Shown here in pieces: positions 56,727-58,730 of a DNA stretch of 64,000 nucleotides (its first letter is position 1; each line of letters begins with the position of its first letter). Both the position numbers and the translations under genes were made by a program. Origin of the DNA: Candidatus Kerfeldbacteria bacterium RIFCSPLOWO2_02_FULL_42_19 (lineage in GTDB: Bacteria; Patescibacteriota; Patescibacteriia; HO2-48-17); contig MHKF01000013.1 in assembly GCA_001818315.1 (NCBI GenBank), positions 14,612 through 78,611 on the forward strand, written 5' to 3'. The notes beneath the pieces were generated by a model. The model made no database searches. It saw only the letters and a program-made list of their open reading frames with translations, and was not told the origin of the DNA.

Positions 56727-58730
56727 AAAGGAGGTGATCCATGGACAGCTTCCGCTACCCATGCCTTGTTACGACTTCGTCCCTGTCACCAGCCCTACCT
56801 TAGGCTCTGCTATTCGTGCAGAAATTTCGGGTATTGCCGGCTCCCTTGACGTGACGGGCGGTATTGAGATATTTGTTTCCAAATTCTCACACCACTGGGC
56901 AAACGGTTTTCCCGTACCCTAGCGGTTCCTGTAATGCTTCTTAGAATAGGATCGAATTTTTGCATACAGGTTCGGCCCTTCATCCCGACGTATCAGGATT
57001 ACTACGGCCTCTGCTGACTCCTTGTTAGATTCGGAAGTTGCGTTGCCGCAATTTCCTTACTCGGTTTCAATTTCATCACGATATTCTATCATTCCCCGAG
57101 CACCCTAACAAGATCTCCCTGGGTCACTTTTATCACCATTTTTTCTCATCTTCGGTCTTCCGTCACTTATCTTGTTTATGAATAGTAGATCGCTTCCTCA
57201 TGTACACGCAGAGTCGCGCACAAGATAAGCCTTTCGAAGACTCAAGCTGAAAAATGTTACTTTCGCCCTTCAGTGCATACCTCGCGATATGCACCTGCGA
57301 TTTCACTTAAGGTAGTCTACTGCCACCTTGTCAGACTTCCACTGACTGGTTGATAAAAACTGCCAGGCGTCCCGTGTACAAAGCCCGAGAACGTATTCAC
57401 CGCGCCATGGCTGATACGCGGTTACTAGCGATTCCAACTTCATGAGGTCGAGTTGCAGACCTCAATCCGAACTGGGGCGAGTTTTATGGATTTGCTAAGC
57501 GTTGCCGCTTTGCGACCCGCTGTGACTCGCCATTGTAGCACGTGTGTAGCCCTGGACGTAAGGGACACGCTGACTTGACGTCATCCCCTCCTTCCTCCCT
57601 CTTAAAGAGGGCAGTCTGGTATGAATATACAACATACCACGGGGGTTGCGCTCGTTTTCCGACTTAACGGTACATCTCACGACACGAGCTGACGACAGCC
57701 GTGCATCACCCTGCCTATGGTTCCTTGCGGCACACCCTCATTTCTGAGAGCTTCCATAGGAAGAATCCAGGTAAGGTTCCTCGCTTACCATCGAATTAAA
57801 CCACATGCTCCACCGCTTGTGCGGGCTCCCGTCAATTCCTTTGAGTTTTAGCCTTGCGGCCGTACTCCCCAGGCGGAGTGCTTAAAGCGTTAGCTTGAGT
57901 AAACGGCACTGATAGGGTCGAAACTACCAATGCCTAGCACTCATCGTTTACGGCGTGGACTACTAGGGTATCTAATCCTATTCGCTCCCCACGCTTTCGT
58001 TCTTTCAGTGTCAGGATTGTTCCAGCAGAATGCCTTCGCCTTTGGTGTTCCTGCCGATATTAACGCATTTTACTGCTACACCGGCAATTCCATCTGCCTC
58101 TCCCATCCTCGAGCCTTGCAGTTTCGAACGCGGCCCTCATGTTGAGCATGAGGATTTAACGTTCGACTTACAAAGCCACCTTTGAACGCTTTACGCCCAA
58201 TAAATCCGGGTAACGCTTGAGGCCTTCGTATTACCGCTGCTGCTGGCACGAAGTTTGCAGCCTCTTATTCCTCAGGTACCATCGCTGGTTTTTCCCTGAG
58301 AAAAGACTTTTACACCCCGAAGGGCTTCTTCGGTCACGCGGCGTCGCTCCCTCAGACTTTCGTCCATTGGGGAAGATTCTCGACTGCAGCCACCCGTAGG
58401 TGTCTGGGCAGTATCTCAGTCCCAGTGAGGCGGGTCGTGCTCTCACACCCGCTACCCGTCATAGCCTTGGTAAGCCGTTACCTTACCAACAAGCTGATGG
58501 GACATAGGCCCCTCCTTCACCGAAAAACTTTCTTCTGATAGCAGACGCTACCAGAACGTACGGAGTATTAGCCCCACTTTCGCGGGGTTATTCTCCTGTG
58601 AAGGGTAGGTTACCAATGTGTTACTCACCCGTTTGCCACTGTCCGTACCTTGCGGTACGAACCGTTCGACTTGCATGCCTTAAACACGCCGCCAGCGTTC
58701 ACCCTGAGCCAGGATCAAACTCTCATTAAG
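56727..58730 (-). rRNA. rrs: 16S ribosomal RNA gene (about 2.0 kb, including a ~510-nt insertion)
   Basis: The plus strand shows reverse complements of the universal 16S ends (CTGAGCCAGGATCAAACTCT at 58704-58723, AAGGAGGTGATCC at 56728-56740) and of conserved blocks (GTATTACCGCGGCTGCTGGCAC, ACGGGCGGTGTGT split, TTGTTACGACTT). Confidence 0.9.
56863..57373 (-). other. ~511-nt insertion interrupting the 16S rRNA at the universally conserved 1390-1400 region (E. coli numbering); no ORF
   Basis: The sense strand reads ...CGGGCTTTGTACAC [insert] ACCGCCCGTCAC..., where E. coli has a contiguous TTGTACACACCGCCCGTCAC. None of the six frames has an ORF of 60 aa or more inside the insert. Confidence 0.6.

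What the first reader, a model, noticed from the sequence alone, without database searches (positions are those of the whole stretch)
56863..57373. 511-nt ORF-less insertion in the 16S rRNA at the universally conserved 1390-1400 region
The 16S gene is about 2.0 kb. The sense strand reads ...TTGTACAC | insert | ACCGCCCGTCAC..., so the universal 1392R primer site is split. The insert encodes no homing endonuclease, since there is no ORF of 60 aa or more. It should be either a self-splicing intron removed from the rRNA or an unprecedented expansion next to the decoding centre. CPR 16S genes are known to carry insertions. The exact site and the coding status of this one are still worth documenting, because a retained 511-nt insertion near the decoding-centre (A-site) region would affect ribosome function.
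Basis: partly seen in the sequence, partly recalled or inferred. Interest (0 to 1): 0.6.

Follow-up and report, generated by a model that had tools for sequence, protein, structure and literature searches.

The report
ORF-less group II intron in 16S
The 511-base insert in this 16S rRNA gene is a compact group II self-splicing intron that has lost its homing-endonuclease gene; it belongs to an intron family already described at this exact site in CPR bacteria and giant sulfur bacteria, so it is real but not new.

Summary
The 16S gene lies on the minus strand, about 58730..56727. It is interrupted by exactly 511 nt (57373..56863) between E. coli positions C1397 and A1398, and no ORF of 60 aa or more lies wholly inside the insert.

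The insert is a group II intron:
- It matches Rfam group-II-D1D4-1 (55.5 bits, threshold 35).
- A 7-nt EBS1 in a hairpin loop is complementary to the last 7 exon bases.
- Domain V is 36 nt (a 34-nt core plus a closing A-U pair), with a CGC triad, a G.U wobble and a 2-nt bulge.
- Domain VI has an invariant bulged A 8 nt from the 3' splice site.

Nine distinct homologues at the same 16S site were aligned with it. They come from Uhrbacteria, other Patescibacteria, one Gammaproteobacteria MAG and metagenomes. They support a six-domain fold: 94% of cells pair against about 41% in slid controls, and 90 of 134 pairs show compensatory changes.

All relatives are 734-966 nt. They carry a single-motif LAGLIDADG ORF of about 170 aa in domain IV, degraded in one case. 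The window copy has lost this ORF.

The same gene-plus-intron arrangement recurs in four independent assemblies, which rules out misassembly.

The family is published: site 16IS9 in CPR, including 14 ORF-less copies, and rns-1396. Splicing itself was not tested here. Verdict: a new member of a known kind, of low-to-moderate interest.

The parts
57374..58730 (-). 16S rRNA 5' exon (Rfam SSU model positions 1-1388, E. coli 1-1397)
   Evidence: It aligns contiguously to RF00177 and has no other large insertion.
57374..57380 (-). IBS1: the last 7 nt of the 5' exon (UGUACAC), which pair with EBS1
56863..57373 (-). Group II intron, 511 nt, ORF-less (GGGACGCC...CUCAAU)
57118..57367 (-). Domain I (intron positions 7-256), closed by CCUGG/CCAGG
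   Evidence: Helices 2-12. Most have compensatory changes.
57197..57213 (-). Hairpin whose loop carries EBS1 (GUGUACA, 57207..57201)
   Evidence: A 7-nt Watson-Crick match to the exon end occurs once; 0.036 are expected in shuffles. Relatives with exon GUACUC have EBS1 GAGUAC, a compensatory change.
57109..57127 (-). Motif GUGACCCAGGGAGAUCUUG at the domain I / domain II junction
   Evidence: It is invariant in the alignment apart from one A/G position, but the metagenome relatives were retrieved with this motif, so only the five genome-scan relatives test its conservation independently. It is also present in two RT/maturase-encoding group II introns, L018 and L032.
57016..57117 (-). Domain II (intron positions 257-358)
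   Evidence: Helices 13-15
56975..57057 (-). Match to Rfam RF01998 group-II-D1D4-1 (part of domain II, J2/3 and domain III)
   Evidence: 55.5 bits, gathering score 35, E = 3e-7 for the whole window
57009..57015 (-). J2/3 linker AGCAGAG, within the conserved AGUCAGCAGA
56975..57008 (-). Domain III (intron positions 366-399)
   Evidence: Helices 16-18
56928..56970 (-). Domain IV: stem CCUGUAUGC/GCAUUACAGG with a short loop where relatives carry the LAGLIDADG ORF
   Evidence: helix 19 covaries. Relatives have 401-442 extra nt here (206 in L003); the window copy has 19.
56919..56942 (-). Relic of the lost ORF's 3' end: AAG AAG CAU UAC AGG AAC CGC UAG = KKHYRNR*. This matches the C-terminus of the L007 endonuclease and overlaps the domain IV 3' strand and the start of domain V.
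   Evidence: read directly from the sequence
56891..56926 (-). Domain V: ACCGCUAGGGUACGGGAAAACCGUUUGCCCAGUGGU, 36 nt (34-nt core plus a closing A-U pair), with a CGC triad, a G.U wobble at the triad G, a 2-nt UU bulge and a GAAAA loop
   Evidence: helix 20 is 100% paired, with 4 pairs showing compensatory changes
56866..56888 (-). Domain VI: GAGAAUUUG-GAAA-CAAAU[A]UCUC. The bulged A at 56870 is invariant in all 10 aligned sequences and lies 8 nt from the 3' splice site.
   Evidence: in helix 21, 7 of 8 pairs have compensatory changes
56727..56862 (-). 16S rRNA 3' exon (ACCGCCCGUCAC ... GGAUCACCUCCUUU; helices 44-45)
   Evidence: RF00177 positions 1389-1520, 71.8 bits

Best explanation
**What it is.** The insert is an ORF-less group II intron, with a class-C-like domain V carrying a CGC triad. 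It lies in the only 16S gene seen in the window, between C1397 and A1398.

**How it most likely works (inferred).**
- It is transcribed as part of the pre-16S rRNA and folds into the six-domain ribozyme.
- EBS1 (57207..57201) pairs with the last 7 exon bases and so fixes the 5' splice site.
- Domain V supplies the catalytic centre.
- The bulged A of domain VI (56870) attacks the 5' splice site. Alternatively water does so, because there is one extra 5' nucleotide ahead of the GNNYG-like motif.
- The exons are then ligated to restore ...GUACAC|ACCGCCCGUC..., the decoding-centre strand.

**History.** The intron descends from a LAGLIDADG-encoding intron that homes into this site at the DNA level. 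The endonuclease gene in domain IV has been deleted, so this copy is now an immobile, vertically inherited, splicing-only element.

**Shown versus inferred.** Shown: the anatomy, homology, covariation, loss of the ORF and reproducibility of the assembly. Inferred: actual splicing, the chemical pathway and the loss of mobility.
For: - **Exact site.** The interruption falls between SSU model positions 1388 and 1389, which are E. coli 1397 and 1398.
- **Rfam.** RF01998 group-II-D1D4-1 scores 55.5 bits against a threshold of 35.
- **Fold.** The minimum-free-energy fold has z = -5.8 and contains domain V and domain VI hairpins.
- **Relatives at the same junction.** There are five in species-representative genomes and about ten more in metagenomes.
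- **Covariation.** RNAalifold predicts 130 pairs, 89 with compensatory change. For the tested structure, 94.0% of cells pair against 35-42% when partners are slid. 90 pairs change on both sides against 25-40 in slid controls. The covariation score is 0.631 against 0.09-0.13, and 0 of 500 shuffles reach any measure.
- **EBS1-IBS1.** The 7-nt match is unique (0.036 expected). Where the exon reads GUACUC, EBS1 reads GAGUAC.
- **Endonuclease in relatives.** Their ORFs are LAGLIDADG_1 (E = 1e-21) and lie in domain IV. The window copy has none, and no LHE or RT is found anywhere in the window.
- **Core intact.** The window copy keeps 117 of 126 positions that are invariant in the nine ORF-bearing relatives, and forms 125 of 134 consensus pairs, within the relatives' range of 119-131. 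None of its nine private changes lies in domain V, domain VI, J2/3 or EBS1, and several keep or restore pairing.
- **Reproducible.** The intron is identical in four independent assemblies.
- **Literature.** Group-II-like insertions in CPR 16S occur only at about position 1400 (site 16IS9): 53 found, 39 with an LHE and 14 ORF-less (PMC11270868). That paper also states that CPR rRNA insertions are removed from transcripts. The rns-1396 family is described as an IIC backbone with a single-motif LHE in domain IV, no EBS2 and a 5' terminal linker (PMC13190283).
Against: - Rfam's general group II model RF00029 (domains V-VI) does not match, even at E <= 10 on a 131-nt stretch.
- The 5' end is GGGACG, not GUGYG.
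- Domain V has an extra bulged A in its lower helix and a 5-nt loop instead of a GNRA tetraloop.
- There are no RNA data for this organism, so splicing is not demonstrated.
- No maturase-like protein was identified, and only 64 kb of the genome was seen.
- The literature disagrees on the subclass: IIB1 in PMC4424553, IIC in PMC13190283.
Confidence: 0.85

Rival explanations
1. The insert is a retained expansion segment. It is not removed, and it stays in the mature 16S rRNA next to the decoding centre.
For: No transcript data were available here. CPR rRNAs are unusual in other ways. The intron has no encoded protein to help splicing.
Against: The insert has the full conserved and covarying group II catalytic architecture, including domain V, the bulged A and an EBS1 that tracks the exon sequence. 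An inert expansion would have no reason to keep these. It also splits one of the most conserved strands of the ribosome. Insertions of this kind are reported absent from CPR transcripts (PMC11270868, citing Brown et al. 2015).
Confidence: 0.03
2. The ribozyme or host nucleases cut the insert out, but the exons are not ligated. The result is a fragmented 16S rRNA: a 1.36-kb piece plus a 3' piece of about 135 nt, held together in the ribosome. This would resemble RNase III-processed intervening sequences in 23S rRNA.
For: A 5'-terminal extra nucleotide is associated with hydrolytic rather than branching first steps in fungal rRNA group II introns (PMC4424553). Fragmented rRNAs exist in bacteria, as with the IVSs mentioned in PMC11270868.
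Against: The 3' splice-site elements are conserved: domain VI with its bulged A, and the 3'-terminal AU in most members. This argues for a complete two-step reaction. The insert is not a simple extended hairpin of the IVS type.
Confidence: 0.06
3. The intron is dead and decaying in a non-functional 16S copy (a pseudogene). Having lost its endonuclease, it is now degenerating, and a different rRNA gene serves the cell.
For: The ORF has been lost. The window copy has slightly more private changes at otherwise invariant positions than the relatives do (9 against 1-6). Only 64 kb of the genome was seen.
Against: The exons score 1337 bits against the SSU model with no defects. The intron core is intact, and several private changes keep or restore pairing. 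The intron is identical in four population samples. CPR genomes usually have a single rRNA gene set (general knowledge, not tested here).
Confidence: 0.04
4. The insert is an assembly artefact, with a foreign fragment joined into the 16S gene.
For: rRNA genes are prone to chimeric assembly in metagenomes. Contig-end differences in L037 cluster in one 16S region.
Against: Four independent assemblies from different samples carry the identical intron at the identical junctions. About 15 other organisms have homologous introns at the same nucleotide.
Confidence: 0.01

Closest known systems
Group-II-like insertions at site 16IS9 (about position 1400) of CPR 16S rRNA genes (Tsurumaki et al. 2024, PMC11270868)
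   Same: Same gene, same site and probably the same host group. Both are detected through Rfam group II models. That survey already counted ORF-less copies: 14 of 53, with ORF-containing and ORF-less versions highly similar outside the ORF.
   Different: Nothing essential. This copy is only 51-64% identical to the relatives fetched here, so it is a diverged member. Its domain structure, EBS1 and branch site are worked out here, which the survey did not do for individual copies.
rns-1396 group II-LHE intron family of giant sulfur bacteria (Salman et al. 2012; Liu et al. 2026, PMC13190283)
   Same: Both share the insertion site, a single-motif LAGLIDADG ORF in domain IV (in the relatives), the absence of EBS2, a 5' terminal linker and a CGC-type domain V. 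The closest intron to the window copy is in a Gammaproteobacteria MAG (L007, 64% identity).
   Different: The window copy lacks the ORF. Its host 16S is nearer to Patescibacteria than to Gammaproteobacteria. PMC13190283 reports the family only from Thiotrichaceae.
Fungal mitochondrial rRNA group IIB1 introns with LAGLIDADG ORFs and 5'-terminal insertions (Li et al. 2011; Mullineux et al. 2010, as summarised in PMC4424553)
   Same: Both are group II ribozymes in rRNA genes that move by a DNA endonuclease rather than a reverse transcriptase. In both, splicing occurs 1-33 nt upstream of the GUGYG-like motif and EBS2 is lost.
   Different: Those introns usually lack the branch-point A, whereas here it is invariant. 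Their domain V has an AGC triad, whereas here it is CGC. The host compartment also differs.
C.te.I1 of Clostridium tetani: a bacterial ORF-less group II intron with no related protein gene in the genome, which self-splices robustly (PMC4424553)
   Same: Both are bacterial, ORF-less and have an altered 5' end. Both may not depend on a protein.
   Different: C.te.I1 is not in an rRNA gene and is not derived from an LHE-carrying intron. Self-splicing of the window intron is untested.
RT/maturase-encoding bacterial group II introns sharing the GUGACCCAGGGAGAUCUUG and CAAGAAGUC..CAUAGUA motifs (metagenome loci L018, L032)
   Same: They share the domain I/II junction motif and the J2/3-domain III motif.
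   Different: They encode a 434-aa RVT_1+GIIM protein, have an AGC-triad domain V that matches RF00029, and are not in rRNA genes.

Membership tests
Group II intron | Six-domain secondary structure (domains I-VI around a central wheel) | tested here: met
   Consensus fold of 10 homologues: 134 pairs in 21 helices, 94% paired, 90 pairs with compensatory change. Slid and shuffled controls are far lower.
Group II intron | Domain V: a hairpin of about 34 nt with a catalytic triad (AGC or CGC), a G.U wobble and a 2-nt bulge | tested here: met
   56926..56891 has a CGC triad, G.U in all 10 sequences, a UU bulge, 100% pairing and 4 covarying pairs. It is atypical in having an extra bulged A and a 5-nt loop.
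Group II intron | Match to the Rfam general model RF00029 (domains V-VI) | tested here: not met
   No hit at E <= 10 on 801 nt or on 131 nt. The same model does hit the RT-type introns L018 and L032.
Group II intron | Match to an Rfam D1-D4 model | tested here: met
   RF01998 scores 55.5 bits against a gathering score of 35.
Group II intron | Domain VI with a bulged adenosine 7-8 nt upstream of the 3' splice site; intron ends in AY | tested here: met
   The A at 56870 is invariant in the 10 aligned sequences and lies 8 nt from the splice site. The intron ends AAU.
Group II intron | 5' consensus GUGYG directly at the splice site | tested here: not met
   The intron starts GGGACG. The invariant G-C lies one nucleotide further in than in L012 and L026, so there is a 1-nt 5' insertion. 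A second subfamily has 6-9 extra nt. This deviation is known for rRNA group II-LHE introns (PMC4424553, PMC13190283).
Group II intron | EBS1-IBS1 pairing that defines the 5' splice site | tested here: met
   A 7-nt match in a hairpin loop, with 0.036 expected by chance. There is a compensatory change in L012 and L026, and a shifted EBS1 in the subfamily inserted 1 nt downstream.
Group II intron | Catalysed excision and exon ligation | not testable with these tools
   This needs RNA data or an in-vitro splicing assay.
16S site-1397/1398 LAGLIDADG group II family (16IS9 / rns-1396) | Insertion at the GUACAC|ACCGCC site of 16S rRNA | tested here: met
16S site-1397/1398 LAGLIDADG group II family (16IS9 / rns-1396) | Homologous ribozyme sequence alignable over all domains | tested here: met
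   51-64% identity over the ORF-free alignment, with 117 shared invariant positions
16S site-1397/1398 LAGLIDADG group II family (16IS9 / rns-1396) | Single-motif LAGLIDADG ORF in domain IV | tested here: not met
   The longest internal ORF is 47 aa. tblastn with four family endonucleases finds nothing significant. Only the last 7 codons and the stop survive. The window copy is therefore an ORF-less derivative, a state already recorded for the family (PMC11270868).
Subclass IIC | CGC catalytic triad; no EBS2; small domain I | tested here: inconclusive
   The CGC triad is met. No EBS2 candidate is found next to IBS1. Domain I sub-helices were not compared with reference IIC introns. The literature disagrees: IIB1 in PMC4424553, IIC in PMC13190283.
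Group I intron | Rfam RF00028 match; U at the end of the 5' exon; terminal G | tested here: not met
   No RF00028 hit at E <= 10. The 5' exon ends in C and the intron ends in U.
RNase III-processed intervening sequence (IVS) | A single long hairpin replacing a helix tip, usually in 23S rRNA | tested here: not met
   The fold is multi-domain, and the site is a single-stranded conserved strand of 16S.

The most novel reading that the evidence does not exclude
This 511-nt RNA may be a naturally minimal group II ribozyme that needs no protein. It encodes no endonuclease, reverse transcriptase or maturase, and none is visible nearby. It nevertheless sits in what is probably the only 16S gene of a small-genome bacterium, so it would have to splice efficiently on its own in vivo. 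Bacterial ORF-less group II introns with no related protein in the genome were considered nearly non-existent: one case, C.te.I1, in PMC4424553. The retained bulged A together with a 1-nt 5' insertion would also make it a test case for whether 5' insertions really force hydrolytic splicing.
Probability: 0.4. Interest if true: 0.45.

Novelty: new member of a known kind. Interest (0 to 1): 0.25.

Why it matters
**Practical effects.** The intron splits the 1392R/1406R universal primer site and lengthens the gene to 2.0 kb. Amplicon surveys and size-filtered 16S pipelines will therefore miss or mis-handle this organism.

**Biology.** It is one more documented case of a group II ribozyme, stripped of its mobility gene, persisting in an essential rRNA gene. 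This bears on how CPR-type bacteria tolerate rRNA introns and on the gain-and-loss cycle of homing endonucleases.

**Limits.** It does not change current understanding. The site, the family and the existence of ORF-less copies are all published.

Tried and rejected
- **Rfam group I (RF00028) and general group II (RF00029) models.** Neither hits the insert at E <= 10, even on a short stretch. The only sub-threshold matches are noise (snoRNA, miRNA, CRISPR repeat).
- **Viral contig scan with the intron motif.** Nothing found.
- **Endonuclease or reverse transcriptase elsewhere in the window.** tblastn with four family LHEs and a YxDD/LAGLIDADG motif scan of 132 ORFs found nothing. The single E = 0.024 hit lies on the intron's own domain III-V RNA and reflects ORF/ribozyme overlap in relatives.
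- **EBS2.** No complementarity next to IBS1 beyond chance.
- **Non-16S metagenome matches to the 19-nt motif.** L014, L015, L020, L025, L027, L028, L031 and L033 are chance matches inside protein-coding sequence. L018 and L032 are RT-type group II introns.
- **Primary papers.** Salman et al. 2012 and Brown et al. 2015 are not held in the library. Their content is cited only through PMC11270868, PMC13190283 and PMC4424553.
- **Organism.** It could not be named. Only 16S similarity points to Patescibacteria.
- **RNAalifold exon pairing.** The proposed pairing between the 5' exon/intron start and the 3' exon (columns 8-10 with 597-599) is invariant and uninformative, so it was dropped from the tested structure.
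Full report
**Observation**

Rfam places a bacterial SSU rRNA gene on the minus strand of the window. When the 3' part is searched alone, the model aligns up to position 1388 (…UUGUACAC, last base at window 57374). A second match resumes at model position 1389 (ACCGCCCGUCAC…, first base at window 56862) and runs to the anti-Shine-Dalgarno end (sequence). The interruption is therefore exactly 57373..56863, 511 nt, with no rRNA position lost or duplicated. The boundaries cannot slide, because the flanking bases differ. 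Against E. coli rrsH the site is between C1397 and A1398, inside the 1392-1406 primer site. No ORF of 60 aa or more lies inside the insert; the longest is 47 aa.

**Not an artefact**

The neighbouring SufS protein is encoded on 23 contigs in public assemblies. Four loci from different ENA samples were fetched. All contain the same 16S gene with the same insert, at 98.3-99.9% identity over the gene and with no indel. There is not a single difference inside the 511 nt. The differences that do exist cluster elsewhere in the 16S.

**What the insert is**

- The whole-window Rfam scan gives one non-rRNA, non-tRNA hit: RF01998, group-II-D1D4-1, at 57057..56975 on the rRNA strand, with 55.5 bits against a gathering score of 35.
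- The insert folds much better than shuffles (z = -5.8).
- The minimum-free-energy structure ends in two hairpins that look like group II domains V and VI.
- Domain V is 36 nt (a 34-nt core plus a closing A-U pair): ACCGCUAGGGUACGGGAAAACCGUUUGCCCAGUGGU, with a CGC triad, a G.U wobble at the triad G and a 2-nt bulge.
- Domain VI is GAGAAUUUG-GAAA-CAAAU[A]UCUC followed by AAU, which puts a bulged A 8 nt from the 3' splice site.
- In the loop of a domain I hairpin, GUGUACA (57207..57201) is the perfect complement of the last seven exon bases, UGUACAC. This is a unique match, with 0.036 expected in shuffles.

**Relatives**

A scan of one genome per species for 16S genes reading …GTACAC followed by G returned eight loci. 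Three are point variants of the 16S. Five carry inserts of 734-924 nt at precisely this junction:
- two Ca. Uhrbacteria MAGs;
- a 'Patescibacteria group' MAG;
- an unclassified bacterial MAG;
- an uncultured Gammaproteobacteria MAG.

A metagenome scan with an intron-internal 19-mer (GTGACCCARGGAGATCTTG) returned 25 loci:
- Sixteen are 16S genes with the intron. Fourteen of these hold the complete intron at this site or one nucleotide downstream, and two (L013, L019) are cut short by a contig end.
- Two are classical group II introns.
- Seven are chance matches in coding sequence.

Every complete relative is 734-966 nt long. All but one carry an intact ORF of about 170 aa with one LAGLIDADG motif (Pfam LAGLIDADG_1, E about 1e-21). 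L003 has a broken, shortened ORF. The ORF sits in domain IV. In the alignment the window copy simply lacks it: relatives have 401-442 extra nt there (206 in L003), and the window copy has 19.

The last seven codons and the stop of the L007 endonuclease (KKHYRNR*) are still readable in the window copy at 56942..56919. They overlap the 3' strand of domain IV and the start of domain V. tblastn with four family endonucleases, and a motif scan of all 132 ORFs of at least 100 aa, found no endonuclease or reverse transcriptase elsewhere in the window.

**Structure test**

Ten distinct sequences of the main subfamily were aligned, with the ORF excised and 8-nt exon flanks kept (A2). RNAalifold predicts 130 pairs, of which 89 show at least one compensatory double change. 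The same structure was counted again with the EBS1-IBS1 pairing added as a pseudoknot.

| Measure | Structure as given | Controls |
|---|---|---|
| Cells forming a standard pair | 94.0% | 35-42% with partners slid by 1-3 columns |
| Pairs changed on both sides | 90 | 25-40 (slid) |
| Covariation score | 0.631 | 0.09-0.13 (slid) |
| Shuffles reaching any measure | – | 0 of 500 |

- All six domains are supported individually. Domain V is 100% paired with four covarying pairs. In domain VI, seven of eight pairs covary. The domain IV stem covaries even though it flanks an ORF.
- The bulged A of domain VI is invariant.
- EBS1-IBS1 covaries. The two sequences whose exon reads GUACUC have EBS1 GAGUAC.
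- A second subfamily (L009, L010, L017, L021) is inserted one nucleotide further downstream. It has a shifted EBS1 (UGAGUA or UGUGU) and 6-9 extra nucleotides at its 5' end.

**Is the window copy still functional?**

It agrees with 117 of the 126 positions that are invariant in the nine ORF-bearing relatives. It forms 125 of the 134 consensus pairs, within the relatives' range of 119-131. Its nine private substitutions avoid domain V, domain VI, J2/3 and EBS1. Several keep or restore pairing, for example C-G to U-A in the EBS1 hairpin stem. Together with the exons' full-length 1337-bit match to the SSU model, this argues for a working ribozyme in a working gene.

**Deviations from the textbook**

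- The general Rfam model of domains V-VI (RF00029) does not match, even at E <= 10. It does match the two RT-type introns found in the metagenome scan, whose domain V has the AGC triad.
- The 5' end is GGGACG, not GUGYG. By alignment, the invariant G-C lies one nucleotide further from the splice site than in L012 and L026, which amounts to a 1-nt 5' insertion.
- No EBS2 candidate exists next to IBS1.
- The non-canonical 5' end and the missing EBS2 are published traits of LAGLIDADG-type rRNA group II introns (PMC4424553; PMC13190283).

**Mechanism**

- Inferred: the intron is transcribed within the pre-16S rRNA. A strong promoter-like site lies at 58978..58950.
- EBS1-IBS1 sets the 5' splice site, and domain V provides catalysis.
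- The domain VI adenosine, or water given the 5' insertion, attacks the 5' splice site.
- The exons are joined to restore GUACAC|ACCGCCCGUC.
- The ancestor moved by endonuclease-mediated DNA homing into this universally conserved site. With the ORF deleted, this copy is immobile and vertically inherited.

**Comparison with what is known**

- Tsurumaki et al. 2024 (PMC11270868) surveyed CPR rRNA genes. They found group-II-like insertions only at about position 1400 of 16S (site 16IS9). Of 53 cases, 39 had a LAGLIDADG ORF and 14 were ORF-less, none had a reverse transcriptase, and ORF-containing and ORF-less versions were highly similar outside the ORF. They also report, citing Brown et al. 2015, that such insertions are removed from transcripts.
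- Liu et al. 2026 (PMC13190283) describe the bacterial 'rns-1396' family, first found in Thiomargarita by Salman et al. 2012. They describe an IIC backbone with a single-motif endonuclease in domain IV, no EBS2 and a 5' terminal linker.
- An older review puts all LHE-type group II introns in IIB1 (PMC4424553). The subclass is therefore unsettled. The CGC triad found here favours a IIC-like core.

The window intron is a diverged, ORF-less member of this family: 51-64% identity to the relatives fetched, the closest being the Gammaproteobacteria MAG copy.

**Host**

The 16S exons are 78-84% identical to the Patescibacteria/CPR loci retrieved, and 70-74% identical to the non-CPR ones. This is consistent with, but does not prove, a CPR origin. 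The organism could not be named.

**Verdict**

The feature is a new member of a known kind. Splicing itself, its pathway, and whether it needs any protein remain untested.

Noticed in passing
window 56351-56505 (minus strand), and the whole window: The 16S gene is followed by tRNA-Ile(GAU) and tRNA-Phe(GAA), not by the usual Ile-Ala-23S arrangement. No 23S or 5S rRNA is detected anywhere in the 56 kb downstream, so the rRNA genes appear to be unlinked.
   Followed up: partly
window 56552-56579: A 12-bp GC-containing hairpin flanked by A/T runs lies between the 16S 3' end and tRNA-Ile. It looks like a terminator on both strands, which suggests the 16S may be its own transcription unit.
   Followed up: no
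L009, L010, L017, L021 (=L023, L030), L013: A second subfamily of the same intron is inserted one nucleotide downstream, after A1398. It has 6-9 extra 5' nucleotides (AAAUUAAAU or GAAUUAAAG), and its EBS1 is shifted to match (UGAGUA pairs with UACUCA). The 5' splice site has therefore moved along the exon within one intron family.
   Followed up: partly
L018 471-489 and 909-2231; L032 366-384 and about 2052-2126: Two metagenome group II introns encode an RVT_1+GIIM protein and have an AGC-triad domain V. They share the 19-nt GUGACCCAGGGAGAUCUUG motif and the CAAGAAGUC…CAUAGUA motif with the 16S family. This hints at which retroelement lineage the endonuclease-type introns came from.
   Followed up: partly
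L002, L005, L006, L007 intron ORFs: The endonuclease ORFs of relatives begin upstream of domain IV, with the AUG inside the conserved AUGCAAGAAGUCAGCAG of domain II/J2/3. They end inside the domain IV 3' strand, or at the UAG of domain V (CCGCUAGGG). Coding sequence and ribozyme core therefore overlap at both ends.
   Followed up: partly
L003 4232-4965: The Ca. Uhrbacteria copy is 734 nt long, with a frameshifted and internally deleted LAGLIDADG ORF. It is an intermediate between the copies of about 900 nt and the 511-nt window copy. Its close relative L022 (92% identical ribozyme) still has the full-size 966-nt version.
   Followed up: partly
L002, L011/L016/L024, L006/L029, L003 (16S genes of relatives): The relatives' 16S genes align to the window 16S in several blocks. 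There are additional insertions, for example about 1 kb at the position matching window 16S nucleotide 762, and smaller ones near 430-460. The window gene has only the one intron.
   Followed up: no
L007 (CAYIMB010000012.1, uncultured Gammaproteobacteria MAG): The intron closest to the window copy (64% identity, identical first 7 nt and identical domain IV 3' strand) sits in a Gammaproteobacteria MAG. The window's 16S exons resemble Patescibacteria. This fits horizontal spread of the intron between phyla.
   Followed up: partly
window 58226-58247 and 58386-58403 (16S, minus strand): The 16S deviates from the Rfam consensus inside two widely used primer regions. It reads GUGCCAGCAGCAGCGGUAAUAC at the 515F region and CCUACGGGUGGCUGC at the 341F region. 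Several universal primers besides 1392R would therefore mismatch (alignment).
   Followed up: no
window 49378-55001: A Suf iron-sulfur cluster assembly cluster lies next to the rRNA gene: Rrf2-type regulator, SufC-like ABC ATPase, SufB/D, a Rieske protein, SufS-like aminotransferase, NifU-like and FeS_assembly_P proteins. A Na+/Ca2+ exchanger gene follows at 55378-56322.
   Followed up: no
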